Source: a virus
Taxonomy: Duplodnaviria; Heunggongvirae; Uroviricota; Caudoviricetes
Strand: one strand, 5' to 3'
Length of the DNA: 64,000 nt
Virus record (IMG/VR): IMGVR_UViG_2671180676_000004
Location: 1-64,000 of that record
Shown: positions 3,384-57,734 of the stretch, piece after piece
How the letters are laid out: every line of letters begins with the position of its first letter
Position numbering within the stretch: position 1 is the stretch's first letter
Notes under the pieces: generated by a model
What the model saw: only the letters and a program-made list of their open reading frames with translations
Told to the model about the DNA's origin: nothing
Database searches by the model: none
Translations under genes and position numbers: made by a program

Positions 3384-3953
3384 ATGTGCAAGAAATGCAA
3401 AGCGATAGCTGATGAACAAAACGCCTTATTCGAAGAAATGGATGCTAATGAACTGGTCAAAATGTTAGCCATTCTTCGAGGAATAGAAGACGTTTCCATA
3501 TTTGAGAGAGTGGTTACAGCACTTAATTTTGAGTCCACCTTTGAAGAGCCAACTCAGGTTGTAGCTTTAGCACATCATTTCGGTGTTCATTATCTTGCTG
3601 AAAAAGAGCGCGCTGATAAGTTGCAGGCGACTTTGGATATGGTGAGCGAGACTCAACGAACTGATGACACTAACAAGAGTGAGGCGATTATTGCCAGCAA
3701 AGATCGTGAAATTGCTGGGCTTAAATCCTCTCTAACGATGTTGATGTCTGCGTTCAATCTTATATCTTCTCAGGCGGGTTATAAAATGCCATCACTAAAC
3801 AGCGATGATCCGATGGCCGTTCGTCAGCTTTTGGGAGCAATGGCCGACCAACTCGACGACACAAAGAGTCGGCTTGAAGACATGATGCGTGAGTTAAGCC
3901 ATCGACATAACCTCGCAACACAGCCACACAAAGCCTTTCAAAGCTCTAATTGA
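3384..3953 (+). CDS. Hypothetical protein (189 aa)
   Basis: ORF with SD-like AGGAAA; followed by hairpin tatggccg…cggccata at 3959-3980. Confidence 0.5.
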   Translation: MCKKCKAIADEQNALFEEMDANELVKMLAILRGIEDVSIFERVVTALNFESTFEEPTQVVALAHHFGVHYLAEKERADKLQATLDMVSETQRTDDTNKSEAIIASKDREIAGLKSSLTMLMSAFNLISSQAGYKMPSLNSDDPMAVRQLLGAMADQLDDTKSRLEDMMRELSHRHNLATQPHKAFQSSN

Positions 3954-41227: not shown

Positions 41228-41497
41228 GTGTCGCCATTAGAGCTACTGAACGTTCCTCTCACGATGTTCTGGATGCTCAGTCGCAATATAGACCGTCTGC
41301 GTGCGGAAGAGGATGTCCGCAACTTACAAGTCGCTCGTGCGTCCCAGGCGGATGGCGAGGCTGTGAAGGCGTTCATGGAGGGTTTGCAACTCAGGATTGG
41401 AAGACCAGTCGTAACAGATAAAGTCTACGATCCAAGCCAGGATAAGGCAGACCCTGACGCCAAAGAGCAACTGATGCAAATATTTGGCAGAGGATGA
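41228..41497 (+). CDS. Tail assembly chaperone frameshift extension (lambda T-like)
   Basis: -1 frame open from 41111, overlapping the last 12 codons of the G-like gene; no independent ATG (track start is GTG). Confidence 0.45.
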   Translation: MSPLELLNVPLTMFWMLSRNIDRLRAEEDVRNLQVARASQADGEAVKAFMEGLQLRIGRPVVTDKVYDPSQDKADPDAKEQLMQIFGRG

Positions 41498-41504
41498 CAA
41501 GGGA

Positions 41505-44500
41505 ATGTCACAAAACGTAGAGTTTATCCTGTCGCTGGAAGACAAACAGTTTACAGCGTCAATCGATCGTGCGGGGAAACTGCTTACTCGATTTGGTGAG
41601 CAGGTAACAAAGCCTGCTCAAAAAATCCAAACCTTTGAACGCTCTTTGGGTTCGGTCGCCCGTATCATGGGCGTTCTGGAAAGCAAGCTCGATTCTACGG
41701 CAGATAAACTACAGGATGTAGCTGCCGGTTTTGAGCTTGCTTCAGATGCTACGCGTAAAATGCGTGGCAACATCACCAGCCTCAATTCTGGTCTTAAAGC
41801 CCTGATTGAGCGCGTCGATACGACAACTTCTTCAGTAGATAAACTCACCGCGTCATTACGTAAAGTGCAATCAGAGCTAAATGATTTCTCTGATTGGGCG
41901 ACCTATGCAAGCAAAAGCGCAAGCCGCTTTGGTACGGAGGTCAAAGAAGCCTCTGCGTCCGTGAGTGGCATGAATACGCGCCTTAATACCACGACGAAGC
42001 GACTCAGTAATTGGGGTGTCACAACGAGTCAGGCTGCCGAGGGACTGAAAAAGGTTCGTGAGCAGATGGACGAAGTTATCGGACGTCAGCAACTGATTAG
42101 CAAGCCGGTACGCGTTCGTACATCTGGAAGTGGCGATGGTGGTAGCGGGCGGCGTAGCGGCGCTTCTGGCCATAGCGGTAAAAGTAACGAAGGAGGTATG
42201 TTCTCTGGCCTTCGTGGCAACATTTTCCTGCTTGGCGAGATCGGAGATGCAGCCAGAACGGTTACTGACATAATGTTTGGGTGGCAGAAGCCTATTGTTG
42301 AAGCTGCGGCCGAAATGGAACGTATGCGGGTGATGCTTCGAGGGTTGAATAAGGAGAAGTCCAACCCGGGCCAGGCTGCCGCTGATGATATGAAGTACAT
42401 CGTAGACATGGCGCAAAATGCGCCGTTCGCGATGCAGGCGTTAACAGATTCCTTCGTGAAGTTTCGTTCTGCTGGCTTAGATCCAACCGATGGTTCTCTG
42501 AAGGCGCTGGTGGACTCCGTTGCTCGTTTTGGTGGTGATAGTGAGCTGTTGAAACGTGCGGCTGTGGCCGTTCAGCAGATGTCCGGTAAGGGCGTTGTGT
42601 CAATGGAAGAGCTACGTCAGCAATTAGGTGAAGCCGTTCCTAACGCGATGCAGGCAATGGCAGACGCCGCAGGCATCACTATGGGGGAACTGACTAAAGC
42701 CGTTGCCAGCGGTACGGTTGAGGCAAAACAGGCGTTGTCTCTGATGTTTGTTGGTCTGCGTGCGGAGAATGAGAACGCAGCGAAAGACATGATGCAAACC
42801 TACACAGGTGCGCTGGCACAACTTCAGACCTCATTTACGCTATTTGCAGATCGTGTTGGTCAGGCCGGATATCTGGATTCTCTATCAAAGGGGATGAAAG
42901 AACTGGCTTCAATCATGAATAGCGCGGAAGGGATTTCGTTTGCCAATTCTTTAGGTTCGGGGTTAACGACGGCAATCGATGGGTTGCGTCAGCTTGCTCA
43001 ATGGTTAGCAAAGAACCAAGAGTTGGTAATTAATCTCGGTAAGGTTGTGGCCGCGATGGTTGCGTTCAAACTGATGCGAGCAGGGGTCATGGGGGTAGTT
43101 GGCGCTGGCAGCCAGATGGTTAGCACCTTTGCCACGATGGCGACCGCTATACAGACTCCATTTAACCTCGGCGCTACAGCAGTAACTCGATTCAATCGTG
43201 CGGCACGTATGGGGCTGGCTCCGATCCCCTCTCTTATTTTCGCCATCCGTGGGGCGATTACGGGGCTTAAAGGCGCTTTTGCAGGATTAACGGCGTTCAT
43301 TGCGGCAAACCCTATAGGGGCAGCATTTACAGTCGCCACTGTAGCTGTTGCTGGCCTAATCACGTACATGACCATGCTCCGCAGCGAAACTTCAAAGGTC
43401 GTTGACGAGATTAGGAAAATACCAGAGGCGATGACGGCGGCCAAACGTGCACAAATGGCCGACCGCGCAGAAAAGCTCGAAAAGCAGATTCTTGCTGATC
43501 AACGAGCATTAAAAACTGGTGAGGGTGTTAATTACGTATCTAACTCTGCCGGTGTTATTACTCACAAAGAGTCGAAGGCTGACATCGAAGCACGCCTGAA
43601 AAAAAATCAGGAGGAGTATCAAAAGATAACCGGCACGATAGCTCTTGGTGACGGCGCTGTAGCAAAGCGTTTGGCTAAAGAGGCTGCCGAATCTCAGATT
43701 GAGAAAATTCGAGCGGAAAACCAGATTTTCGCGGCAACATTCGTGAAAGCCCGGCAAGAGGCTCTGGATAAGATCCAGAAAATCAATGATGACGGTTCAC
43801 TTTCAGATGACGAAAAGAACAAGCTATTGGCACCGTTACGTGAAACGGTAAACAAAAGCTATCTGGAGCCTGCGCAAAAACTGGTTGATTCACTTTCTTC
43901 TCGTAAGAATGCGACCGAGAAGCAAATTGCGACTCTTAATGATCAGCTTGAAAAAGCCAAAAAGGATGGAAATACCGAGCAGATCCAGAAACTGCAAGGC
44001 AGTATTCGTGGTTATCAGGAGCATTTGGAAGCCGTTGCTCAGGAGCTGACTCAGGCAGAGTTCGAGAGAGATAACGCGGCCAAAACTGGTAAGGGCGTAA
44101 TGTCAAACCAGGGGACTGTTCTTGGGTTAGGTACAACTGATAAAGCTGCTCAGAAGGCGCTGGCGCAATATATGCGAAACCAGATGGATTCTGCGACTTA
44201 TCAACGTACTTTGCCTGACGGCACTCCGATGATGGACTTCGAAGGTAAGCCGATTATTGGGCCTAAACAACTCAAGACGCAGCTTAATTTGCAGAAAGCA
44301 TCCAGTGCCAGCTCTCTGGAGAAAATGAGCGATGAAGAGCGTGCCGCAGCCATTGCCGCACTTACTAAAGCTCGTGAACAGGATGCCGCAGCCGCCGAGA
44401 AAGCAGCCCAACGATCAGCTAATGCCTCGCAGCGTGCGGCCAAGAAAGAACAGGCAGCGCAACAGAAACTGGCGGCCGGATATCAGAAGGCTCTGGATAA

Positions 44501-46076
44501 AGCCGATCAGCTTATGGGGCAAATGGGTGAAAGCTCTAAGGCTACGGTATCGTTTGATCAGTCTCTTCGCGATACAACAAAATCGCTAACTGATTTGGCT
44601 AATGCGATTCCTAACGAGTTCATCACTCAAGAGATGATCGACAAGGCGAAAAAACGTCTTGAAGACCTCAAAAATGCGACACCTGAATATCGCGAGATGT
44701 TTAATCGCCGCAATGTTGAGCAGATGATCTCCACTTGGGCACCGGAGGCGGATTCCATTATTAGTGCTGGCTATACGCCATCTCGCGAAGAGAAAGTTGC
44801 TGATTTCGAAGACACCTACAACCGCAATCTCAAAGCGTTGATAGAACTTCGTGATAAGGCGTCTGATCCTAAAGTTGTGGCGCTTTATACAAAGAAAATC
44901 AATCAACTGATTGCTGCTGGCAATACCGCGCTTATTAAAGAGACGGGGACTGCGACGCAGAAGTTGGCACTGGAATACGAAAACCTGGCAGAGCAGGTCG
45001 AAAGCACCTGGACTGATTTGTTTAGTGGCTTAACTGATGTCCTGACTGATTTCGTTATTAACGGGAAGATGAGCTTCTCCAGCCTATCTCAGTCCATTTT
45101 GAAAGATATCACCAATATGGTCGTGAAGTCGCAGATCACGCTGCCTCTAATGAACATGTTGGGGATGGGAACCACCGCAGCTGGTAGTTCACAGAGTGGC
45201 AATTTGCTGACCGGGGTTGCTTCTGCCGTTGCCAATCAAGGTGTACGAATGGGCAACACTGTTAATGGCGACAAGTCGGTAGGAGAAGCCACGAAGGAGA
45301 CGTCCAGTTCGGTAACTGGATTGGGGCAAACAACACAGCAGACCACCAGCGCAATTGGCACAGCAACAAATGCGATTGGTAGCTGGGTATCGGGGCTATT
45401 TGATAGCACCGAAGCCAAAGATGCTGAGACAAAAGCAGTGAAGGACTCCATCTTCTCGATGCAGAATCTCAGCTCTGTTACCGGCGCTCTGTCAGCCGCG
45501 TTTGCAATGCTTGGAGCTAATGCTTCCGGCTCTGGTAATAAGTGGTTGAATTTCGGCGCGACAGTTGCATCTGGTTTGGTTTCAGTATGGGCTGGTGGTG
45601 GATTCGATGGATTGATGTCCGGTTCTTCTGGCTCAACTTCCGGGTTCAACAATCTGACCAGTTCTGCTGCCGATGGCACGAATGGTATTCCTGCAATTCC
45701 GAAGTTTGCAAATGGTGGCATATTCGGAAAAGACGGCGTGATCCCGCTCCGGGCATACCAGAAAGGCGGTATCGCCAACTCACCTCAATTGGCGTTGTTT
45801 GGGGAAGGCGATATGAATGAGGCGTATGTTCCATTGCCTGATGGTCGAACAATCCCTGTAACGCTCAGTACCGATGGTATGAGTGGAGGAGGAAATGTTC
45901 TTTCTCCGGTATCAATTGAGATCAACGTCCATAGTGACGGTAGCACAACTGAATCCGGCGATACAGAAAGCATATGGAACAATGCCGCTCAACGGATGAA
46001 AGCAATCGCGCTTGAGACTATCGCTCAAGAGAAACGCCCTGGCGGATCACTCAACCCAAACACTCAACGTAACTAA
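41505..46076 (+). CDS. Tail tape measure protein
   Basis: About 1520 aa, helical, Gly/Ala-rich TM-like central block; ATG 41505 with SD AAGGGA. Confidence 0.85.
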   Translation: MSQNVEFILSLEDKQFTASIDRAGKLLTRFGEQVTKPAQKIQTFERSLGSVARIMGVLESKLDSTADKLQDVAAGFELASDATRKMRGNITSLNSGLKALIERVDTTTSSVDKLTASLRKVQSELNDFSDWATYASKSASRFGTEVKEASASVSGMNTRLNTTTKRLSNWGVTTSQAAEGLKKVREQMDEVIGRQQLISKPVRVRTSGSGDGGSGRRSGASGHSGKSNEGGMFSGLRGNIFLLGEIGDAARTVTDIMFGWQKPIVEAAAEMERMRVMLRGLNKEKSNPGQAAADDMKYIVDMAQNAPFAMQALTDSFVKFRSAGLDPTDGSLKALVDSVARFGGDSELLKRAAVAVQQMSGKGVVSMEELRQQLGEAVPNAMQAMADAAGITMGELTKAVASGTVEAKQALSLMFVGLRAENENAAKDMMQTYTGALAQLQTSFTLFADRVGQAGYLDSLSKGMKELASIMNSAEGISFANSLGSGLTTAIDGLRQLAQWLAKNQELVINLGKVVAAMVAFKLMRAGVMGVVGAGSQMVSTFATMATAIQTPFNLGATAVTRFNRAARMGLAPIPSLIFAIRGAITGLKGAFAGLTAFIAANPIGAAFTVATVAVAGLITYMTMLRSETSKVVDEIRKIPEAMTAAKRAQMADRAEKLEKQILADQRALKTGEGVNYVSNSAGVITHKESKADIEARLKKNQEEYQKITGTIALGDGAVAKRLAKEAAESQIEKIRAENQIFAATFVKARQEALDKIQKINDDGSLSDDEKNKLLAPLRETVNKSYLEPAQKLVDSLSSRKNATEKQIATLNDQLEKAKKDGNTEQIQKLQGSIRGYQEHLEAVAQELTQAEFERDNAAKTGKGVMSNQGTVLGLGTTDKAAQKALAQYMRNQMDSATYQRTLPDGTPMMDFEGKPIIGPKQLKTQLNLQKASSASSLEKMSDEERAAAIAALTKAREQDAAAAEKAAQRSANASQRAAKKEQAAQQKLAAGYQKALDKADQLMGQMGESSKATVSFDQSLRDTTKSLTDLANAIPNEFITQEMIDKAKKRLEDLKNATPEYREMFNRRNVEQMISTWAPEADSIISAGYTPSREEKVADFEDTYNRNLKALIELRDKASDPKVVALYTKKINQLIAAGNTALIKETGTATQKLALEYENLAEQVESTWTDLFSGLTDVLTDFVINGKMSFSSLSQSILKDITNMVVKSQITLPLMNMLGMGTTAAGSSQSGNLLTGVASAVANQGVRMGNTVNGDKSVGEATKETSSSVTGLGQTTQQTTSAIGTATNAIGSWVSGLFDSTEAKDAETKAVKDSIFSMQNLSSVTGALSAAFAMLGANASGSGNKWLNFGATVASGLVSVWAGGGFDGLMSGSSGSTSGFNNLTSSAADGTNGIPAIPKFANGGIFGKDGVIPLRAYQKGGIANSPQLALFGEGDMNEAYVPLPDGRTIPVTLSTDGMSGGGNVLSPVSIEINVHSDGSTTESGDTESIWNNAAQRMKAIALETIAQEKRPGGSLNPNTQRN

Positions 46077-48617: not shown

Positions 48618-51600
48618 TTGAACATGGAACAGTTCAAGAAGAAAAAGCTACCGCTGTTTATTGCCGGTGCGGGTGGTAAAAAAAGCAGCAAAAGCTCCAG
48701 CCGTACACCGGTTGAAGCCGACGATACCGTAAATTCTCGTGCAATGGCCGCTATCCTCGATCTTCTTGGGGAAGGGGTAATTGGCGGCTTAGTAAATGGC
48801 GCAAGATCTATTTTTATCGACGATCTGCCGATTGTAAATGAAGACGGTTCCTCCAACTTCAGCGGAATCACATGGGATTTTCGCGACGGTTCACAAGACC
48901 AGACTCCAATGTCTGGCTTTGATTTCGTTGAAACGCCTAAATCCGTCAATATCCAGTTAAAAAAAACACATTATGTAACGGTTTCAATCGATAACGATGA
49001 AGCTGATCGGGTTCGTGTCATCATGAAGTTTCCTTCTTTGCGAAGCATAGATAAAAAAACTGGTGACACGAACGGTACGACTGTTGAGTACAAGTTCCAG
49101 ATAGCAAATGGCGACTCAACATTTGTAGATGTGGTCGCGGAAGGTGAAAAAAGCGTTGGCATTAAGCTAACAGCAAAGAAGACCGGCGTTTATTACCGTA
49201 GCTACGAGCTGAAGCTGCCTAAGCCTGGACGCGCATACAAGGTTCGTGTAGTCCGTATTACCGATGATAACAGTAGCCAGTATCTCTATAACGATACATG
49301 GGTGGATTCAATCGGGGAAATTGTCGATACACCGATGAACTATCCAAACTCTGTTTTGGTTGGATTGAAGGTAAACTCTGAGCAATTCGGCAGCACCATG
49401 CCATCTCGCTCTTATCTGGTGCGTGGCCTAAAAATTCGAGTACCTTCAAACTATAACGAGTCCAGTAACACTTACGCTGGGGTATGGGATGGTACTTTTA
49501 AGCTGTTGTCTTCTTCGAACCCCGCGTGGATTCTCTTTGATTTGCTGACCAATGCTCGATATGGCCTTGGTCAGTATGTGTCGGAATCTATGATTGACCT
49601 TGGCCAGTTGTACCAGATTGGTCGATATTGTGACGAAGAGGTCGATGATGGCTTTGGTGGCAAAGAGAAACGCTTTGCAATCAATACGCAGATCACCAGT
49701 CGACAGGACGCATACCGGCTAATTCAGGATATTGCTGGAGCATTCCGCGGCATGGTGTTTTGGGCTGGTGGGATGGTTAACATCATGCAGGATAGCCCAT
49801 CAGATCCGGTAATGATGTTTACCAACTCCAACGTCAAAGATGGATTGTTTACCTATAAAGGTTCTGCGCGTAAAGATCGCCCATCCGTTGCGCTCGTAAC
49901 CTACAACAACAAGGAGGACGGTTATAAGCAAAACATCGAGTACGTCGAAGATCAGGACGCAATGCGCCGTTATGGTGAGCGTAAAACAGAAGTCGTAGCA
50001 TTTGGCTGTACAAGCCGAGGGCAGGCTCACCGAGTTGGTTTGTGGCTTTTATATACCGCCAGAATGGAGTCGGATGTAATTACATTTACTGCCGGCTTAG
50101 ACGCGTCATTTCTGATGCCTGGTGAAACCGTTCTGATTCAGAACAAATATCGCGCAGGCAAACGTAACTCAGGTCGAATTGTGGCGTTTACCAAAAACAG
50201 CGTCACACTCGATGCGCCTGTGTCGTTAGCCAAAGGCGGCTGCTTTATTCGAATACTGAATAAGGAAGGCAAAATCGTTGAACGCGATGTTCTTGAAACT
50301 GGCGAAAATATAACAAAAGTTACGTTTTCAAAAGCCCTGTCTTCGGCTGAAACGCCTGTTTTGAACGGCGTCTGGACTATTACAGAACCAGACCTCGAAC
50401 CTATGCGCGTTCGCATCGTTAACATCGCGCAGGGGGAAACGCCGGGTAGCTTTGACATCACCGCTGTTGAGAACAATCCGTCTAAATATGAGGCGATCGA
50501 CAATGGTGCAACGCTTATCCCTCAAAATACGACGGTATTGGACCCGACTTACTCCAAGCCGTCTAATTTGCAAATCACCGAAGGGACTTATCTCTCAAGC
50601 CCTGGCAACCTGTCAGTAAAACTGACTGCAACATGGGAAGGGAAATCTCCAGAGTATTGGATCAGTTGGCGACGTTCTGATGAAAACAATGTATCGAACT
50701 GGCAATCGGCGCGTGTAACCGAAGAGCAATACGAAATCGTTAATGTTGCGGAGAATGGACGCTACGACTTCCAGCTGTATGCGGTTTCATTCAACGGTAA
50801 AAAAACAGAGATTATCAGTACCGTTTATCAGGTGCTGGGCACAATGACACCGCCAGATGCCCCAACGTCATTAACGGCCGTTGGAGACTATCGTAATGTG
50901 ATACTGAATTGGGTTAATCCAGATTCGGTAGACCTTGATCACATTAATGTTTACGCATCCCAGACCAACAATCTGGATACGGCGAAACTGATCGCAGAGT
51001 CTGCAAGCACCACCTTTACACATGCTGGTCTTGGGGATAGCGAAACGTGGTATTACTGGGTTCGAGCATCGAACAAGCGAGGTATGTTAAGTCCTCCGAA
51101 CTCAAACTTGGGTACAGAGGCGACAACTCGCGATGTACTGTCGTTCCTGACTGGCAAAATTACATCTTCCGAGCTTGGTCAGGCTCTGCTTGAGGACATC
51201 AACAGCAAAGTCTCTCAAGAAGCAGTTGACGAGTTAAATGAGCATATCAACCAGAGCGTCGAATCTTTGGAGGGGTCGGTAAACGACGTTAAGGAAGATA
51301 TAGCTGAATTAGATAAGCAGTTCAGCGATAACCTCGCGGATTTTGAAATAAAATTCAACGAGCGTAGCGATGCTTTGGAGAACGCACAAACCGAGCTTAA
51401 AGGTGAGGTTTCGGCAACGATCGACAAGGTCAATGAAGCGTTTGAAAAAATTGATGCTACTGATGCTGCAATTGTTGAAATCGAAAACACCGTATCTGAA
51501 CACGATAAAGCTCTCGCTAATACAGTCGAGGCAATAAAGGCTGCAAGAGATGAAGCGGCGGCTCTTATTGCTAAGGAAAGCGAGGCTCGTGTTGAAGGCG

Positions 51601-53351
51601 ATGCTGCAAACGCTAAACAATTGGAAGTGTTGCAGTCAACGGTAGAGGAAAGCTCCGCTGCCGTTGAAGAAATGAAAAAGACGGTTGCAGAGGTCGATCG
51701 TGCAAGTGCAGAACTGACTACGAACATTGAGGCTTTGGCCAAAACAAATATTGACCTGGCTCTTCGTCAAGATGAAGACCAGCACAAGCAGATGGTCAAT
51801 AACGCGAAGATCGCAACAACACAGAAAACCTTTGCTGATGATATGTCTGCAATGGCCACGAAGGTTGAGGAAATTCGCGTAGAAATTGGCGAAGACATTA
51901 AGGCCAGTATTCTGGAAGAGTCCACCGCTCGTGCCGATGGCGATGAAGCGTTGGCAAAGCGTGTCACTCAGCTGCAATCTAAGTTTGAAGGAGATATCAG
52001 CGCGGCGATTAGTACAGAGCAGGAGGCTCGTACATCTGCCGATGAAGCTCTGACGACACAGATCACTCAGCTTGAGTCGAAAGTAAGCAACGATATCGTC
52101 GCAGCTATTAAGGAAGAGCAAGAAGCCCGAGCAACGGAAGATTCGGCTCTGGCAAGCCAGATCACCCAACTTCAGGCAAAGGTTGATGATGATATTTCTG
52201 CTGCAATACGTAGTGAGCAGGAGGCCCGAGCAAGCGGGGACTCTGCGTTAGCCAAACAAATAAACCAGCTTCAGTCAAAGGTTGACGGTGATATATCCGC
52301 GGCCATCACTCAGGAGCAGGAGGCCAGAGCAAGTGCTGACCAGGCGCTCTCACGAGAAATTAACAGCCTGCGAGCACAAACCGGAACTGATATTGCCGCA
52401 GCGGTTGCTGTAGAGACAAAAGCAAGGACTGATGCCGATAGTGCATTGTCTACCCAGATTACGTCTCTTACAGCAAAAGCTAATGATCTCGAGGCGTCTC
52501 TTGCCAGAGAAACAACGGCTCGTGCAGATGGTGATACCGCTTTAACAAAAGAGGTTTCAAGTTTAAAAGCACAGACAGCGAAAGATATTAGTGCGGCCGT
52601 TGCAGTTGAAACGCAGGCTCGAACTGATGCTGACTCGGCGTTGTCGTCTCAGATCACCAAGCTGACCTCTCAATACAAAGAGGATATTAAAGCGGCTGTA
52701 GCAACCGAAACGAAAACGCGTACAGAGCAAGATGCTGCATTGGCGACTCAAATCACAAACTTAGAGTCTCAAACGGCAGCCAACATTTCCGCGGCGGTCA
52801 CAACTGAAACGACAGCGAGAACGCAGGCAGATAATGCTCTGAGTGGGCGAATCGATACTCTGAAAGCAGAGGTGAATGGAAATACCGCGACAATTCAACA
52901 GCAGGCAACAGCTATTGCTGATACCAACAAAAAAGTGTCAACCGCGTGGACGTTGAAAATGGAGACTTCAACGAGCGGAGGGCAGAAGTATATTGCCGGT
53001 ATTGCGCTTGGTATTGACACCACTGGGCTATCTCAGTTTTTGGTTCAGGCGGACAGGTTTGGTTTGGTCAACTCTGTTAACGGGAAGATCACAACGCCAT
53101 TTGTTATCGAAAACAGTATCGCCTATATGAATGGAGCGTATATCAAGGATGGCACAATCACCAATGCAAAAGTAGGCGATCTGCAATCTACCAATTTTGT
53201 TAGCGGTAGATCTGGATGGCGGTTCGGCAAAAATGGAACGCTTGAGATCAACGGTAATAGCGGCGGCAATGGGCGATTGGTTATAAATGGTCAGCGGATT
53301 GACGTTTATGACGATAACAACGTCCTACGAGTAAGAATTGGCCGTCTGTGA
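48618..53351 (+). CDS. Host-specificity / central tail fibre protein J-like
   Basis: 1577 aa; N-terminus J-like; central run of about ten 29-aa heptad-type repeats. Confidence 0.85.
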   Translation: MNMEQFKKKKLPLFIAGAGGKKSSKSSSRTPVEADDTVNSRAMAAILDLLGEGVIGGLVNGARSIFIDDLPIVNEDGSSNFSGITWDFRDGSQDQTPMSGFDFVETPKSVNIQLKKTHYVTVSIDNDEADRVRVIMKFPSLRSIDKKTGDTNGTTVEYKFQIANGDSTFVDVVAEGEKSVGIKLTAKKTGVYYRSYELKLPKPGRAYKVRVVRITDDNSSQYLYNDTWVDSIGEIVDTPMNYPNSVLVGLKVNSEQFGSTMPSRSYLVRGLKIRVPSNYNESSNTYAGVWDGTFKLLSSSNPAWILFDLLTNARYGLGQYVSESMIDLGQLYQIGRYCDEEVDDGFGGKEKRFAINTQITSRQDAYRLIQDIAGAFRGMVFWAGGMVNIMQDSPSDPVMMFTNSNVKDGLFTYKGSARKDRPSVALVTYNNKEDGYKQNIEYVEDQDAMRRYGERKTEVVAFGCTSRGQAHRVGLWLLYTARMESDVITFTAGLDASFLMPGETVLIQNKYRAGKRNSGRIVAFTKNSVTLDAPVSLAKGGCFIRILNKEGKIVERDVLETGENITKVTFSKALSSAETPVLNGVWTITEPDLEPMRVRIVNIAQGETPGSFDITAVENNPSKYEAIDNGATLIPQNTTVLDPTYSKPSNLQITEGTYLSSPGNLSVKLTATWEGKSPEYWISWRRSDENNVSNWQSARVTEEQYEIVNVAENGRYDFQLYAVSFNGKKTEIISTVYQVLGTMTPPDAPTSLTAVGDYRNVILNWVNPDSVDLDHINVYASQTNNLDTAKLIAESASTTFTHAGLGDSETWYYWVRASNKRGMLSPPNSNLGTEATTRDVLSFLTGKITSSELGQALLEDINSKVSQEAVDELNEHINQSVESLEGSVNDVKEDIAELDKQFSDNLADFEIKFNERSDALENAQTELKGEVSATIDKVNEAFEKIDATDAAIVEIENTVSEHDKALANTVEAIKAARDEAAALIAKESEARVEGDAANAKQLEVLQSTVEESSAAVEEMKKTVAEVDRASAELTTNIEALAKTNIDLALRQDEDQHKQMVNNAKIATTQKTFADDMSAMATKVEEIRVEIGEDIKASILEESTARADGDEALAKRVTQLQSKFEGDISAAISTEQEARTSADEALTTQITQLESKVSNDIVAAIKEEQEARATEDSALASQITQLQAKVDDDISAAIRSEQEARASGDSALAKQINQLQSKVDGDISAAITQEQEARASADQALSREINSLRAQTGTDIAAAVAVETKARTDADSALSTQITSLTAKANDLEASLARETTARADGDTALTKEVSSLKAQTAKDISAAVAVETQARTDADSALSSQITKLTSQYKEDIKAAVATETKTRTEQDAALATQITNLESQTAANISAAVTTETTARTQADNALSGRIDTLKAEVNGNTATIQQQATAIADTNKKVSTAWTLKMETSTSGGQKYIAGIALGIDTTGLSQFLVQADRFGLVNSVNGKITTPFVIENSIAYMNGAYIKDGTITNAKVGDLQSTNFVSGRSGWRFGKNGTLEINGNSGGNGRLVINGQRIDVYDDNNVLRVRIGRL

Positions 53352-53444: not shown

Positions 53445-56400
53445 ATGTGGTACAGGGAAGGTACTATCACATTTACACAGGGTAGCAATACTCTGGTTGG
53501 GGCAGGGACAGCCTGGAACGTAACAGCTAATGGTGTGTTGCCGGGGATGATCGTCATTGGCCCCGACAATAAGCTGTATGAGATCAAGCGCGTAATAAGC
53601 GATACGAATATTGTTCTCTCAGAACCTTATACCGGCGAAACTCAGTCTGAGGTTCCGTGCCGAATCATTACGACCTATGAAGGCGACTTAACACAGTTTA
53701 GCGCGCGCTTTACAGCACTAATGTCGCGTATGTCGGCTGATTCCAAGTCTATGCGCAGTTGGTTGACTGCTCTGGATGAGGTGACAATCGAGCGTGAAGA
53801 CGGTACAGAAGTAACCGTTAAGCCGCTAATGCAGATCGTCAACGAGCACAACGAAAACGTTGAGTGGTATAAAAATAACACTGACGCGATTGATGCTGCT
53901 GGCGACAAAGCTCGTGAGGCGGCGGCCAGTGCTGCCGCAGCAGCAGAAAGCGCCAATACCGCTGGAGAAAAAGCCTCTCAAGCGTCTCAAAGTGCATCCG
54001 CTGCGGCATCCTCACAAAGTGCCGCAAGTGCGAGTGCAACTGCTGCGAAAAAATCTGAAACGAATGCCGCAGCGTCACAACAATCAGCAGCCACTTCTGC
54101 ATCCACCGCGACCACGAAAGCGTCAGAAGCTGCCACCTCAGCCCGGGATGCGGCGGCCTCAAAAGAGGCAGCGAAATCATCAGAAACGAGCGCAGCCTCG
54201 AGCGCCAGTAATGCCGCTTCCTCGGCAACGGCGGCAGGAAATTCCGCGAAGGCGGCAAAAACGTCCGAGACGAACGCCAGGTCTTCTGAAACGGCAGCGG
54301 GACAGAGCGCCTCGGCTGCGGCAGGCTCAAAAACAGCGGCTGCGTCGTCTGCCAGTGCCGCGTCAACAAGTGCCGGGCAGGCCTCAGCCAGTGCCACCGC
54401 CGCCGGAAAATCGGCAGAAAGTGCCGCATCGTCTGCTTCAACAGCCACAACGAAGGCTGGCGAAGCCACTGAACAGGCCAGCGCAGCAGCGAGGTCTGCT
54501 TCCGCAGCGAAGACATCCGAAACGAACGCGAAAGCGTCGGAAACCCGTGCAGAATCCTCAAAAACGGCAGCCGCATCGTCCGCCAGTTCGGCAGCGTCAT
54601 CGGCATCATCGGCGTCTGCTTCAAAAGATGAGGCGACCAGACAAGCGTCCGCAGCGAAGGGCAGCGCCACGACAGCATCCACGAAAGCAACAGAGGCGGC
54701 AGGCAGTGCGACGGCAGCATCTCAGAGCAAAACTGCTGCTGAATCCGCTGCGACCCGTGCGGAAGCTGCTGCTGATCGTGCTGAAGAGATTGCCGGTGCA
54801 GTTGCGATGGAAGATGCAAGCCTTACCACCAAAGGTGTTGTGAAACTTAGCAGTGCTGTCGACAGCACCAGTGAATCTTTAGCCGCGACACCAAAAGCAG
54901 TTAAGACCGCATATGATAATGCTGAAAAACGACTACAGAAGGATCAGAATGGTGCTGATATCCCCGACAAGGGCCGCTTCCTGAATAACATTAATGTTTA
55001 CAGCAAAGGTGAAGTGGATCAGAAAAAGGGGATGCGATACGTTGTGGTCAATGCCCCGGCGGGTGTCCAGGAAGGTAAATATTATCCGTTAGTGATAAAA
55101 AGGAATGACAGCCATCGGGCATCCCGCGTTGTCATTTCAACGCCAAGTCGCACAGCTAATCACAGAATGAATAACTGTGAGTTTAATGGTTTTGTTTGCG
55201 CAGGCGGCTGGACGGACCGGGGTAGCTATGCCTGTGGTATGTTCTGGGCTTATTCATCATCGGAACGCGCTATTCATTCCATTCTGATGAGTAATAAAGG
55301 CGATACCGTAGACAGCGTATTCTATATAGAAGGTGGGGCATTTCCCGTAGAGGTCTTTTTAGAAGAAGGACTTTCTGTTACTGCTCCTGCTTCTGATTAT
55401 GTTGTTGCTGAAACGACTTATAAATTTGGCGCAACTGATCCTTATTCTGAATCAGTTGCGGTAAATTTAATTTTAGATTTTAAACAAGGTAATGGATTTT
55501 ATAGTTCGTATCCTGTTTTGAGTAAGTCAGACATTAGCGGTAATAAGGTTTACGCTAATGATGAAGTTATTGTCCGTAGTCAGAATGCGTTAAGGATGAT
55601 TGCTGGCGATTACGGTGTCATATGGCGAAATGATGGAGCAAATACTTACTTGCTCATGACTGATAAAGGCGACCAGTACGGTGGCTGGAACGGTCTTCGA
55701 CCATTTGCAGTAAATAACGCAACAGGTGAAGTGACGATCAATACACCACTTAATTCTCCAAAAGGGGTTAAGGGGAACTCTGATACAGCTACGAAACTTC
55801 AGACTGCAAGAAAAATATCCGGTGTTCCATTTGATGGCTCTACTGATATCACTTTAACCGCCGCGCATGTTGCCGCTTTCGCAAGAAGAGCAACAGGGTC
55901 ATATGCTGATGCTGATGGCGGCGTGCCGTGGAATGCTGAATCTGGTGCTTATAATGTAACTAGAACGGGCGACAGTTATATTCTTGCCAACTTTTATACT
56001 GGTGTAGGTAGTTGCCGTACGCTTCAAATTAAGGCTCACTATAAAAATGGTGGGTTGTTTTATCGTTCATCTCGCGATGGAAGTGGTTTTGAAAGTGGTT
56101 GGGAGCAGGTTTACACGACTGGATTTAGACCTCAGCCGGCTGATATAAACGCACCAACCGCTGCCGCCGGATGGTTAAATAGTGGTAACGGAACAGCATT
56201 TACGACTGCTCAGTTTATAACGTGGCTAAATAATCAGGGTGCATTTTCAAACAAATATTGGATTGCACGGTGCTCATGGACTTACGCCAACAATAATTAT
56301 ATAGACGACACTGGATGTGGCAGGATCGATCTATCTGGTTCCGTGATTGAGGTGTTTAGTAATAAGTCAACAAGCCACTACACTATTCGTGTTACAACGA

Positions 56401-57734
56401 CAACAACATCGGGCCATGGTGGTGTTAATAATGCGGAGTTTATTTATGTGTACAATGGCAGTGATTACTCGCCAGGCTGGCGTCGTTCTTATAATACTAG
56501 AAACAAACCAACAGCTTCTGATGTAGGAGCATTATCGCTTTCTGGAGGAGCGTTAACTGGCGGATTAACTGCTGCTGGCGAGATTATTTCAAAATCGGCG
56601 AATGGTCTGCGCATTGCCTACGGAAACTACGGATTCTTTATCCGAAACGATGGTTCAAGCACATACTTCATGTTGACCGATTCGGGTAACAGCCTGGGAA
56701 CCTATAATAGTTTAAGGCCGCTTATCATTAACAATGCCAATGGTGCTGTTAGGATCGGTAATGGACTCAATGTTACTGGCGGCATCAATGGTAGTTTGGA
56801 CGGTAATGCTTCAACAGCTACGAAGTTGCAAACAGCGAGAAACATCAATGGTGTTAAGTTTGATGGTTCAGGCGATATCAATATTAATACATTGGTATCT
56901 CGTGGCCGAGTTACGGCGTTAAGCGGCTCTACTCAAGGCACTGCTGGCATTCAAATGTATGAGGCGTACAACAATAGCTACCCGACCATGTATGGCAACG
57001 TATTGCACATGAAAGGTGCGAGTGCTGCTGGTGAGGGAGAGTTGCTTATTGGCTGGAGTGGTACGAGCGGTGCACATGCGCCAGTTTTCATTCGCTCACG
57101 AAGAGATAACACAGGTGCGGCATGGTCAGCGTGGGCGCAGGTATATACCGCTAAGGATTCAATCCCTGGTGTGAATACAACTGGTAATCAGAACACTACT
57201 GGTAATGCCGCAACCGCCACAAAATTGCAGACAGCAAGGAAAATTGCTGGTGTGGCATTTGATGGCTCTGCCGATATAACTTTGACTGCGGCTAACCTTA
57301 ATGCTTACACGAAAACAGAGGTAACAAACCTTCTAAGTTCCTATGTGAAGAGCAGTGCTCTTCCAAGCATGACTGTGCGAACTTCCTCTGTTTCAGGTGG
57401 GGATATGGGCATGAGCTTGTCCGCATTCATTAGCCACCTAAAATCAAATGGGGCGTTTAGCAAAAGTTATTGGATTGGCTTTGGCGATGCTATGGGATTC
57501 AATGCTGGCAGTATCAACAATATAACGGGATTTGGTGCTGTAGAATTAGCAGAATCTATAATCGAAGTTTTTAATCTACCTAACGGTGATTATACAATTC
57601 GTTTAACAACGTCACATAAAGCTGACTACGGTGGAGTTACAAACGCAATCCTCGTTTATCACTACCGTAGTAATAGAAGTCCGTCAGGTCAATGGCTGAA
57701 ATTTGCAGGTACTGTTGGGGCAACAAGTAACTGA
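53445..57734 (+). CDS. Side tail fibre protein
   Basis: 1429 aa; long Ala/Ser-rich segment; fibre motif ATPKAVKTAYD; three ATKLQTAR(K/N)I.GV.FDGS.DI repeats. Confidence 0.8.
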   Translation: MWYREGTITFTQGSNTLVGAGTAWNVTANGVLPGMIVIGPDNKLYEIKRVISDTNIVLSEPYTGETQSEVPCRIITTYEGDLTQFSARFTALMSRMSADSKSMRSWLTALDEVTIEREDGTEVTVKPLMQIVNEHNENVEWYKNNTDAIDAAGDKAREAAASAAAAAESANTAGEKASQASQSASAAASSQSAASASATAAKKSETNAAASQQSAATSASTATTKASEAATSARDAAASKEAAKSSETSAASSASNAASSATAAGNSAKAAKTSETNARSSETAAGQSASAAAGSKTAAASSASAASTSAGQASASATAAGKSAESAASSASTATTKAGEATEQASAAARSASAAKTSETNAKASETRAESSKTAAASSASSAASSASSASASKDEATRQASAAKGSATTASTKATEAAGSATAASQSKTAAESAATRAEAAADRAEEIAGAVAMEDASLTTKGVVKLSSAVDSTSESLAATPKAVKTAYDNAEKRLQKDQNGADIPDKGRFLNNINVYSKGEVDQKKGMRYVVVNAPAGVQEGKYYPLVIKRNDSHRASRVVISTPSRTANHRMNNCEFNGFVCAGGWTDRGSYACGMFWAYSSSERAIHSILMSNKGDTVDSVFYIEGGAFPVEVFLEEGLSVTAPASDYVVAETTYKFGATDPYSESVAVNLILDFKQGNGFYSSYPVLSKSDISGNKVYANDEVIVRSQNALRMIAGDYGVIWRNDGANTYLLMTDKGDQYGGWNGLRPFAVNNATGEVTINTPLNSPKGVKGNSDTATKLQTARKISGVPFDGSTDITLTAAHVAAFARRATGSYADADGGVPWNAESGAYNVTRTGDSYILANFYTGVGSCRTLQIKAHYKNGGLFYRSSRDGSGFESGWEQVYTTGFRPQPADINAPTAAAGWLNSGNGTAFTTAQFITWLNNQGAFSNKYWIARCSWTYANNNYIDDTGCGRIDLSGSVIEVFSNKSTSHYTIRVTTTTTSGHGGVNNAEFIYVYNGSDYSPGWRRSYNTRNKPTASDVGALSLSGGALTGGLTAAGEIISKSANGLRIAYGNYGFFIRNDGSSTYFMLTDSGNSLGTYNSLRPLIINNANGAVRIGNGLNVTGGINGSLDGNASTATKLQTARNINGVKFDGSGDININTLVSRGRVTALSGSTQGTAGIQMYEAYNNSYPTMYGNVLHMKGASAAGEGELLIGWSGTSGAHAPVFIRSRRDNTGAAWSAWAQVYTAKDSIPGVNTTGNQNTTGNAATATKLQTARKIAGVAFDGSADITLTAANLNAYTKTEVTNLLSSYVKSSALPSMTVRTSSVSGGDMGMSLSAFISHLKSNGAFSKSYWIGFGDAMGFNAGSINNITGFGAVELAESIIEVFNLPNGDYTIRLTTSHKADYGGVTNAILVYHYRSNRSPSGQWLKFAGTVGATSN

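What the first reader, a model, noticed from the sequence alone, without database searches (positions are those of the whole stretch)
51880..52900. About ten tandem 29-aa repeats inside the J-like tail tip protein
The protein is about 450 aa longer than lambda J because of in-frame repeats of the form …E(Q/T)EAR(A/T).AD.AL…QI(T/N).L..K….I.AA…. Such repeats are prone to slippage or recombination and could vary fibre length and host range.
Basis: seen in the sequence. Interest (0 to 1): 0.4.

Follow-up and report, generated by a model that had tools for sequence, protein, structure and literature searches.

The report
Variable-copy repeat shaft of phage tail fibre
The tail-tip protein of this E. 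coli phage-plasmid carries ten tandem 33-residue repeats that form a long helical shaft, match a published motif for a helix-to-sheet "spring" used to puncture cells, and vary in copy number among natural relatives.

Summary
The repeats are real, but the period is 33 aa (99 nt), not 29. There are ten units at aa 1090-1418 of the J-like protein (nt 51885-52871).

The window is an SSU5-like phage-plasmid; its J protein is 99.6% identical to that of Escherichia phage Cyrano.

The array is the distal part of a roughly 550-aa alpha-helical shaft, inserted between the FN3 domains and the PF09327 tail-tip domain. Lambda J has no such shaft.

Each unit fits the published fold-switch motif SxSxxMxxLxS twice, in opposite orientations (100/100 positions), with an invariant E12-R16-D20 ladder. 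The region is homologous to the F-type pyocin central-fibre shaft. In F7 pyocin that shaft converts from a coiled coil to a beta-prism to drive puncture (He et al. 2026).

Copy number does vary: 4-11 units in close E. coli relatives and about 22 in a 46%-identical homologue. Near-isogenic plasmids differ by exact 99-nt gains or losses, with junction microhomologies of 3-11 nt.

The units are only about 52% identical at the DNA level. About 93% of sampled copies of this allele keep ten units, so this is slow modular evolution, not a slippage hotspot.

Any effect on host range is untested.

Verdict: a new member of a recently described kind, with an undescribed modular, copy-number-polymorphic architecture.

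The parts
48618..53351 (+). J-like tail tip / central fibre gene (1577 codons from TTG 48618; annotated start ATG 48624, 1575 aa)
   Evidence: ORF list. Pfam hits are FNIII-A_GpJ 104-238, Phage-tail_3 360-523, fn3 747-826 and Phage_Tail_Tip 1425-1559. The protein is 99.6% identical to Cyrano 'tail host specificity protein J', which lies after TMP-M-L-K-I, and 100% identical to P0001.
51216..51737 (+). Shaft part 1: predicted helix aa 867-1040, heptad-like, without the regular 33-aa unit
   Evidence: AF2 helix H37-210 of model m2478a962cff9. The hydrophobicity period is 3.56, with no strong period-2 component. One weak degenerate unit lies at aa 976-1008 (nt 51543-51641), HMM score 11.
51738..51770 (+). 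Predicted break or kink in the shaft, aa 1041-1051 (AKTNIDLALRQ), followed by acidic DEDQH
   Evidence: This is the only non-helical gap in the AF2 shaft, with pLDDT <50. The block is invariant in 24 homologues. By analogy with the acidic kink that docks side fibres in F-pyocins it is a candidate docking site; this is inference only.
51885..52871 (+). Array of ten tandem 33-aa (99-nt) units, aa 1090-1418. Unit starts: 51885, 51984, 52083, 52182, 52281, 52380, 52476, 52575, 52674, 52773
   Evidence: Lag-33 autocorrelation and shuffles. Unit HMM scores are 45-57 bits each. Unit alignment A1. The fold-switch motif fits 100/100 positions. AF2 predicts one continuous helix.
51984..52379 (+). Units 1-4: the sub-array where all observed exact 99-nt gains and losses map
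   Evidence: These are the most similar units (57-64% nt identity, exact runs 8-12 nt). Events mapped here are L005 (-198), L006 (+99), L013 (+99), L014/L016 (-99) and L015 (-99).
52872..52940 (+). Degenerate eleventh unit / junction, aa 1419-1441 (VNGNTATIQQQATAIADTNKKVS)
   Evidence: ATIQQQATAIA fits SxLxxMxxSxS with Q at the M position and no Arg at i+4 (read from the sequence). AF2 predicts strands here with an 81-sequence alignment and a helix with a shallow alignment. The homologous F2-pyocin residues, up to 1084/1085, are coiled coil in cryo-EM.
52890..53348 (+). C-terminal tail-tip (central straight fibre) beta domain, PF09327, through the conserved end ...LRVRIGRL
   Evidence: Pfam E=2e-41. 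AF2 predicts a beta-rich fold with pLDDT 81-94. Foldseek hits are the lambda gpJ central fibre (8xcj/8xci) and the SU10 tail tip fibre 7z4b_EA. The 159 aa after the array are near-invariant among relatives.
53445..57734 (+). Adjacent side tail fibre gene (1429 aa); context, not part of the repeat
   Evidence: Pfam Gp34_trimer. Its length differs among relatives: 1341 aa in Cyrano, 1260 in SSU5, 597 in PhiR41_1.

Best explanation
The ten 33-residue units are the modular building blocks of the distal alpha-helical, presumably trimeric coiled-coil shaft of the central tail fibre of an SSU5-like phage-plasmid. The shaft connects the J hub and FN3 domains to the small beta-prism tip domain.

Each unit has nine helical turns, with core positions at about 3.67-residue spacing and a buried E12-R16-D20 charge ladder. 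Each unit also encodes two 11-residue beta-strand motifs of opposite polarity.

I infer that, as shown for the homologous shaft of F7 pyocin, the array is a metastable spring. On receptor engagement it would refold from coiled coil (about 49 nm for ten units) into one beta-hairpin per unit stacked on the tip domain's beta-prism (about 1 nm per unit). That would shorten the fibre, open the tail tip and release the tape measure.

Copy number changes slowly, through in-register, microhomology-mediated unequal recombination between units. The result is lineages with 4 to about 22 units.

Shown: the repeat anatomy, the homology, the motif fit, the helix prediction, and natural gains and losses of exact units.
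Inferred: trimeric state, the fold switch itself, and any consequence of copy number for reach, stored energy or host range.
For: - Anatomy and significance of the repeat.
- Position between FN3 and PF09327, where lambda J has nothing.
- AF2 predicts one continuous helix through the array. pLDDT is about 90 for aa 1289-1409 with an 81-sequence alignment, and the helix spans aa 1052-1438 with a shallow alignment.
- Homology of the last units plus tip to the F2-pyocin fibre 25vf_A: E=1.8e-24, aligning unit 9 to F2 residues 1029-1060, inside the cryo-EM coiled coil 907-1085.
- The published fold-switch motif SxSxxMxxLxS, with alternating orientation and a Glu(M)-Arg(i+4) salt bridge, comes from He et al., PMC12874032. 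Here A7-x-I9-x-x-E12-x-x-A15-x-A17 and A22-x-A24-x-x-I27-x-x-L30-x-S32 fit in 100/100 positions, and E12, R16 and D20 are invariant.
- The array's hydrophobicity spectrum has strong components at both 2.06 residues (beta) and 3.65 residues (alpha). The upstream shaft has only 3.56.
- The 'array followed by PF09327' architecture recurs. A unit-profile search found 1797 clusters at E<=0.001 and arrays of up to 20-30 units, with or without a J hub.
- Copy-number variation with hybrid units and exact 99-nt indels occurs in >=97%-identical backgrounds, with junction microhomology of 3-11 nt.
Against: - The fold switch has been demonstrated experimentally only for F7 pyocin. For phages it rests on AlphaFold predictions in a preprint, and SSU5-like phages are not mentioned there.
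- My own AF2 runs are monomeric. They show the array only as a helix. Only the junction (aa 1414-1438) flips between helix and strand depending on alignment depth, and at moderate confidence.
- The array is twice as long as the F7 switch region and has a 33-aa rather than the commoner 32-aa period, so behaviour could differ.
- F-pyocins have small receptor-binding proteins encoded directly downstream of the fibre gene. Here the next gene is a 1429-aa side fibre, so the trigger would have to differ.
- No oligomeric state, virion image or functional data for this protein were available.
Confidence: 0.6

Rival explanations
1. Static spacer. The array is an ordinary, stable trimeric coiled-coil stalk that only sets the distance between the tail hub or side fibres and the tip domain. 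Copy number tunes reach through the LPS or capsule layer, and there is no refolding.
For: - AF2 predicts an uninterrupted helix with high confidence.
- Copy number varies in whole units, as expected for a length-tuned rod.
- Lambda and T5 work without such a switch (He et al. discussion).
Against: - A plain spacer does not explain strict conservation of small residues at solvent-exposed helix positions (A7, A15, A17, A22, A24, S32) across 10/10 units despite saturated synonymous divergence.
- It does not explain the buried E-R-D ladder or the strong period-2 component that the upstream shaft lacks.
- The homologous pyocin shaft does switch.
Confidence: 0.25
2. Contingency locus. The repeats are a slippage-prone hypervariable tract that generates within-population fibre-length and host-range diversity at high frequency.
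For: Exact +/-99-nt variants exist among near-identical plasmids, from at least five independent events.
Against: - Units are 45-64% identical at the DNA level, with exact runs of 12 nt or less.
- Tandem Repeats Finder finds no tandem repeat.
- 50 of 54 sampled >=97%-identical alleles in complete E. coli genomes have exactly ten units, and 33/33 copies of a five-unit allele are invariant.
- Invariant residues use many synonymous codons. That is the opposite of what homogenised, slippage-prone repeats show.
Confidence: 0.07
3. Docking ladder. Each unit is a binding site for side fibres or decoration proteins, so copy number sets how many accessory fibres are carried.
For: In F-type pyocins the coiled-coil shaft is the platform for three side-fibre trimers.
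Against: - In pyocins docking occurs at one acidic kink, not at each repeat.
- The units here are regular and are predicted as unbroken helix.
- The only predicted kink (aa 1041-1051) lies upstream of the array and is invariant.
Confidence: 0.05

Closest known systems
Central fibre protein of F-type pyocins (PyoF10 / PA0641; F7 and F2 pyocin structures, He et al. 2026 preprint PMC12874032; PMC13455828; bioRxiv 10.64898/2026.02.24.707460)
   Same: - Same architecture: J-like hub, FN3 domains, long trimeric alpha-helical shaft, PF09327 beta-prism tip, and no lambda-type receptor-binding domain.
- Detectable sequence homology through the last units and the tip.
- Same SxSxxMxxLxS motif in alternating orientation, and the same Glu-Arg(i+4) pair.
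   Different: - The motif-bearing region is 329 aa in ten near-perfect 33-aa units, against 163 aa (about five 32-aa units) in F7.
- The element is an infectious phage-plasmid, not a tailocin.
- No small receptor-binding genes lie directly downstream.
- The modular repeat and its natural copy-number polymorphism are not described in those papers.
- The switch has not been shown here.
Bacteriophage lambda gpJ (tip attachment protein J; PDB 8iyk, 8xcj)
   Same: The hub, FNIII-A, FN3 and central straight fibre (PF09327) domains are homologous. Gene order after the tape measure is M-L-K-I-J.
   Different: Lambda has no helical shaft between FN3 and the tip domain (J 836 to 840). It carries a C-terminal LamB-binding domain (about 972-1132) that is absent here.
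P22 gp26-type tail needles (trimeric coiled-coil needles whose helical core length varies between phages; from my own knowledge of Bhardwaj et al., not checked here)
   Same: A trimeric coiled coil at the very tip of a phage tail, whose length differs among relatives by insertion or deletion of helical repeats.
   Different: Unrelated protein in podovirus tails, heptad-based, with no J hub. It is not known to refold into a beta-prism.
J homologues of other SSU5-like and lambdoid elements (Salmonella phage SSU5 gp20, PhiR41_1 J, Burkholderia phage KS9 gp19, Vibrio phage P2)
   Same: Same protein family. SSU5 has five units and PhiR41_1 nine. KS9 has about seven units of 32 aa, and Vibrio phage P2 has two.
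   Different: Copy number and period differ. mEp043 J has none of these units, and the Klebsiella pJN2-26 homologue replaces the array with about 2850 aa of mixed coiled-coil and beta domains.

Membership tests
Lambda J / TipJ tail tip protein family | N-terminal hub domains (FNIII-A_GpJ PF24801, Phage-tail_3 PF13550) | tested here: met
   E=1.5e-29 and 7e-34. phmmer to lambda J 8iyk_J gives E=2.8e-124 over aa 21-862.
Lambda J / TipJ tail tip protein family | Gene position after the tape measure and M, L, K, I homologues | tested here: met
   ORF order in the window, and the annotation of the 99.6%-identical Cyrano locus.
Lambda J / TipJ tail tip protein family | Central straight fibre domain (PF09327) | tested here: met
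   E=2e-41 at aa 1425-1559. Foldseek matches lambda gpJ 8xcj/8xci.
Lambda J / TipJ tail tip protein family | C-terminal receptor-binding domain after PF09327 (lambda J about 972-1132) | tested here: not met
   The protein ends 18-28 aa after the PF09327 match, and lambda J 972-1132 has no counterpart.
Fold-switching central fibre shaft (F-type pyocin CFP type) | Long alpha-helical (coiled-coil) segment immediately N-terminal of the PF09327 domain | tested here: met
   AF2 predicts a helix at aa 1289-1409 (pLDDT about 90) and at aa 1052-1438. The trimeric state was not testable.
Fold-switching central fibre shaft (F-type pyocin CFP type) | Sequence homology to a pyocin shaft solved as coiled coil | tested here: met
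   phmmer to 25vf_A gives E=1.8e-24. Unit 9 aligns to F2 residues 1029-1060, within the resolved coiled coil 907-1085.
Fold-switching central fibre shaft (F-type pyocin CFP type) | SxSxxMxxLxS motif in successive strands of alternating orientation | tested here: met
   100/100 motif positions are satisfied in ten units. Full matches recur at fixed offsets in each unit. The motif definition is from PMC12874032.
Fold-switching central fibre shaft (F-type pyocin CFP type) | Acidic residue at the M position paired with Arg at i+4 (buried salt bridge in the coiled coil) | tested here: met
   E12 and R16 are invariant in 10/10 units, and R16-D20 is also invariant.
Fold-switching central fibre shaft (F-type pyocin CFP type) | Acidic kink in the shaft that docks side-fibre trimers | tested here: inconclusive
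   AF2 predicts one break at aa 1041-1051, followed by DEDQH and invariant among homologues. There are no binding data.
Fold-switching central fibre shaft (F-type pyocin CFP type) | Small receptor-binding proteins (PyoF11/F12-like) encoded directly downstream | tested here: not met
   The next ORF starts 94 nt after the stop codon and is a 1429-aa Gp34_trimer side fibre. There are no small ORFs in between. No homology search for PyoF11/F12 elsewhere in the window was done.
Fold-switching central fibre shaft (F-type pyocin CFP type) | Actual coiled-coil to beta-prism conversion on cell binding | not testable with these tools
   The only indirect hint is that aa 1414-1438 is predicted as strand with a deeper alignment and as helix with a shallow one.
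Slippage-prone tandem repeat / contingency locus | High nucleotide identity between adjacent units | tested here: not met
   Mean identity 52%, maximum 64%, longest exact run 12 nt. Tandem Repeats Finder finds nothing.
Slippage-prone tandem repeat / contingency locus | Frequent copy-number differences among near-identical alleles | tested here: not met
   4 of 54 sampled >=97%-identical alleles differ by +/-99 nt, and 0 of 33 do in a five-unit allele.

The most novel reading that the evidence does not exclude
The 33-aa unit may be a quantal 'spring element'. Under this reading each added unit lengthens the pre-infection fibre by about 5 nm, and adds one beta-hairpin of refolding energy and about 1 nm of post-switch prism. 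Natural copy-number polymorphism (4 to about 22 units, with near-isogenic 8-, 9-, 10- and 11-unit plasmids) would then be how SSU5-like phage-plasmids tune reach and puncturing power to host envelopes with different capsule or O-antigen thickness.
Probability: 0.2. Interest if true: 0.7.

Novelty: new member of a known kind. Interest (0 to 1): 0.5.

Why it matters
How non-contractile phage tails get the energy to breach the envelope is a long-standing question. [quoted passage not shown]

This locus offers a culturable, widespread E. coli and Salmonella phage-plasmid family. About 3% of complete E. coli genomes carry this allele. In it the putative switch region is a clean, periodic array.

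Nature has already made the deletion and duplication series: 8, 9, 10 and 11 units on backgrounds that are 97% identical or better. That makes it directly testable how function depends on the number of switch modules.

The result also corrects routine annotation. These proteins are labelled only 'DUF1983' or 'phage tail tip fiber protein'. It also warns that length differences in such genes are real alleles, not assembly errors.

Tried and rejected
- **29-aa period.** Rejected. Lag 29 gives background identity of 21/300, against 144/296 at lag 33.
- **DNA-level tandem repeat.** Tandem Repeats Finder at minimum score 30 finds nothing in the array. The repeat finder gives only short 60-86% matches at 99-nt multiples.
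- **Fixed 33-codon register.** A first comparison of units in this register gave misleadingly low identities for units 6-9, because unit 6 is one residue short. It was redone with HMM-defined unit starts.
- **Hypervariable contingency locus.** Rejected on DNA divergence and population stability.
- **Capturing the beta-prism state with AlphaFold2.** Only the junction changes with alignment depth.
- **Foldseek against PDB.** It matched only the tip domain (lambda gpJ, SU10) and no post-ejection pyocin entry.
- **Supplementary phage list of He et al.** It is not held, so I could not check whether SSU5-like phages were among their 24 predicted cases.
- **The look-up of encoding contigs for the four-unit protein P0117.** It found no record, so that junction was examined at protein level only.
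- **Literature search for DUF1983 with repeats.** Nothing relevant came back.
Full report
**What the window is.** The region lies in a lambda-like tail module: tape measure 41484-46076, then M, L, K and I homologues, a 1577-codon ORF at 48618-53351, and a 1429-aa side tail fibre at 53445-57734. The large ORF carries the Pfam domains FNIII-A_GpJ, Phage-tail_3, fn3 and, at its very end, Phage_Tail_Tip PF09327. Its product is 99.6% identical to 'tail host specificity protein J' of Escherichia phage Cyrano. Cyrano is the SSU5-like phage-plasmid pLF82 of E. coli LF82. The product is 100% identical to a protein cluster with about 2000 members. The annotated start is the ATG at 48624; my residue numbers count from the TTG at 48618 and are therefore +2.

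**Checking the observation.** The translation shows an obvious periodic stretch. Self-comparison gives a single sharp maximum at lag 33, with harmonics at 66 and 99, and nothing at 29. Lag 33 gives 144 identities out of 296; the maximum over all lags in 2000 shuffles was 55; lag 29 gives 21. A profile built from the units finds ten consecutive copies scoring 45-57 bits each, at aa 1090-1418 (nt 51885-52871). One unit (number 6) is effectively 32 aa, and a weak degenerate copy lies upstream at aa 976-1008. Seven columns are invariant: A7, E12, R16, D20, A22, L23 and L30.

At the DNA level the repeat is cryptic. Tandem Repeats Finder sees nothing. Units are 52% identical on average (maximum 64%), and exact in-register runs never exceed 12 nt. 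Third-codon positions are only 33% identical. Invariant residues are spelled with many synonymous codons; R16, for example, is CGT, CGA, AGA or AGG. These are old duplications held in place by selection on the protein.

**Where the extra length comes from.** Lambda J residues 3-836 align to aa 21-862 of this protein, and lambda J 840-971 aligns to aa 1421-1549. Lambda therefore goes straight from the FN3 domains into the tip domain. This protein instead has about 560 extra residues in between, and it lacks lambda's C-terminal receptor-binding domain. AlphaFold2 models the insert as helix: aa 867-1040, a break at aa 1041-1051, then one uninterrupted helix from aa 1052 through the whole array. 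With a more diverse 81-sequence alignment, aa 1289-1409 form a single helix at pLDDT about 90, followed by a beta-rich tip domain. The tip domain matches the lambda gpJ central fibre and the SU10 tail tip fibre by Foldseek. The array is 329 aa of a roughly 550-aa shaft.

**What the repeats are.** A literature search turned up three 2026 studies of F-type pyocins, whose central fibre protein is a J homologue. Its C-terminal part is a trimeric coiled-coil shaft that carries the side fibres (PMC13455828; bioRxiv 10.64898/2026.02.24.707460). In F7 pyocin, 163 residues of that shaft convert into a triangular beta-prism on cell contact, opening the tip and releasing the tape measure. Gln substitutions at small 'corner' residues block killing without blocking assembly (PMC12874032).

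That paper defines a motif, SxSxxMxxLxS, in each strand. The orientation alternates, each subunit forms one sheet, and Glu at the M position is paired with Arg at i+4.

The 33-aa unit here contains that motif twice. It appears once reversed (A7-x-I9-x-x-E12-x-x-A15-x-A17) and once forward (A22-x-A24-x-x-I27-x-x-L30-x-S32). All 100 motif positions in the ten units comply, and full matches recur at fixed offsets in each unit. E12-R16 is exactly the described salt-bridge pair, and both residues are invariant.

The homology is also direct. The last 356 aa hit the F2-pyocin fibre (25vf_A) at E=1.8e-24. Unit 9 aligns to F2 residues 1029-1060, which lie inside the coiled coil resolved by cryo-EM (907-1085).

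The array's hydrophobicity spectrum has strong components at both 2.06 and 3.65 residues. These are the 16th and 9th harmonics of 33, a beta-like alternation and an 11/3 helical period respectively. The upstream shaft shows only a 3.56-residue period.

The stretch just after the array (aa 1419-1441) looks like a degenerate unit that has lost the Glu-Arg pair. AlphaFold2 models it as strands with the deeper alignment and as helix with the shallow one. Its F2 counterpart is helical in the pre-ejection structure.

None of this proves a switch in this phage, but every sequence-level criterion I could test is met.

**How widespread the module is.** A profile of the unit, searched against 1.84 billion representative proteins, finds 1797 clusters at E<=0.001 and 137 at E<=1e-30. 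Arrays reach 20-30 matched stretches. The commonest period is 32 aa, followed by 33, 36 and 39. Where domains can be recognised, the array is followed by PF09327, with or without a J hub on the same chain. One 46%-identical SSU5-type J (P0121, 2138 aa) has 21-22 units of 33 aa. Burkholderia phage KS9 gp19 has about seven 32-aa units, Vibrio phage P2 has two, and mEp043 J has none.

**Does copy number vary?** Yes. Among the 120 best homologues (>=80% identity, nearly all E. coli), strong-unit counts are 4, 5, 6, 7, 8, 9 and 10. Five units is the commonest cluster type, and two very large clusters have ten. SSU5 has five, PhiR41_1 nine and another CMS-2020a isolate ten.

Junction units are hybrids of neighbouring units. 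At the DNA level, near-isogenic comparisons show the following events.
- A 198-nt loss made of two in-register crossovers (L005).
- A 99-nt duplication, 98/99 identical to the preceding 99 nt (L006).
- In complete E. coli plasmids, one +99 event (pCUPF07B) and two different -99 events (pPEC178_2 and HCP30S3_I2 share one; AH04 has the other).

All these events are exact multiples of 99 nt. All map to units 1-4, the most similar units. Junction microhomologies are 3-11 nt. One Shigella sonnei contig also has an in-frame but out-of-register 354-nt deletion.

Against the idea of a hotspot, 180 of 5426 complete E. coli genomes carry this allele, always on plasmids. Of 54 sampled full-length copies at >=97% identity, 50 have exactly ten units. 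A five-unit allele is invariant in 33 genomes, many of them from what looks like one strain collection. The picture is slow, modular, microhomology-mediated gain and loss. Selection probably filters it to whole units, because only whole units keep both the reading frame and the structural register. It is not high-frequency slippage.

**Mechanism proposed, and its status.**
- *Shown:* the repeat; its position; the helix prediction; homology and motif identity with the pyocin switch region; and natural unit-wise polymorphism.
- *Inferred:* that the shaft is a trimeric coiled coil. At 0.15 nm per residue this is about 49 nm for the array and about 80 nm for the whole shaft.
- *Inferred:* that the shaft is metastable and refolds into one hairpin per unit per face. 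At about 0.96 nm per unit this would shorten the array roughly five-fold.
- *Inferred:* that the invariant kink at aa 1041-1051, followed by DEDQH, is where side fibres dock.
- *Untested:* whether unit number affects host range. The tip domain after the array is nearly invariant, whereas the adjacent side-fibre gene differs among relatives. Specificity therefore more likely resides in the side fibre.

**Novelty.** The kind of device was described in 2026 for F-type pyocins and predicted there for 24 siphophages. In the texts I could search, neither the 33-aa modular repeat, nor SSU5-like phage-plasmids, nor copy-number polymorphism is mentioned; the supplementary list was unavailable. I therefore class this as a new member of a known kind. 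Its useful extra is a strictly periodic, twice-as-long version, with a natural allelic series in unit number.

Noticed in passing
L012 (MZ779062.1 55798-67935), Klebsiella phage pJN2-26: The J homologue of Klebsiella SSU5-like phage-plasmids is 4045 aa. It has the same hub (81% identity over aa 1-906) and a PF09327 tip at 3765-3894. Between them lie about 2850 aa of alternating coiled-coil segments and beta-rich CBM-like/ILEI domains instead of the 33-aa array.
   Followed up: partly
window 51738-51785 (aa 1041-1056): This is the only predicted break in the roughly 550-aa helical shaft: AKTNIDLALRQ followed by acidic DEDQH, invariant in 24 homologues. It resembles the acidic kink that docks side fibres in F-type pyocins.
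   Followed up: partly
window 52857-52931 (aa 1414-1438): AlphaFold2 predicts strands here with an 81-sequence alignment and helix with a shallow 24-sequence alignment. The homologous F2-pyocin residues are coiled coil in cryo-EM.
   Followed up: partly
L006 (Shigella sonnei ABGPZI010000001.1), corresponding to window 52562-52915: An in-frame 354-nt (118-aa) deletion, out of register with the 99-nt unit, fuses unit 6 to the post-array segment. It occurs in the same gene as a 99-nt duplication (98/99 identical to the preceding copy). The junction microhomology is 1 nt, and the allele is possibly non-functional.
   Followed up: partly
NZ_CP029421.1 25124-28228 (hit H46); NZ_CP024271.1 (hit H41): One E. 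coli plasmid has an ISEc52 insertion inside the J shaft region. Another copy is 2 nt longer than the query, which could be a frameshift or a sequencing error.
   Followed up: no
window 53445-57734: The side tail fibre gene next to J (1429 aa, two Gp34_trimer stretches) differs in length from its counterparts in Cyrano (1341 aa), SSU5 (1260 aa plus a separate adhesin) and PhiR41_1 (597 aa). It looks like the more variable specificity determinant.
   Followed up: no
window 50138-52169, minus strand: Several long antisense ORFs (up to 177 aa, for example 51636-52169) overlap the J gene. They are most likely by-products of the Ala/Glu-rich repeat coding sequence and not genes.
   Followed up: no
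PDB chain 9l9p_S (1172-aa 'putative tail fiber protein'): This solved J-like protein has near-identical ~33-aa repeats of the same family just upstream of its tip domain (for example IGDDIQASLTDIREVIATETEALSREIDQLKAQ). An experimental structure containing such units may therefore already exist.
   Followed up: no
Literature: PMC9928086 (Cyrano virions): The measured tail length of putative Cyrano virions (259 +/- 12 nm) exceeds the 230 nm predicted from the tape measure. The paper does not discuss a distal fibre, and whether the excess reflects tip structures is unknown.
   Followed up: no
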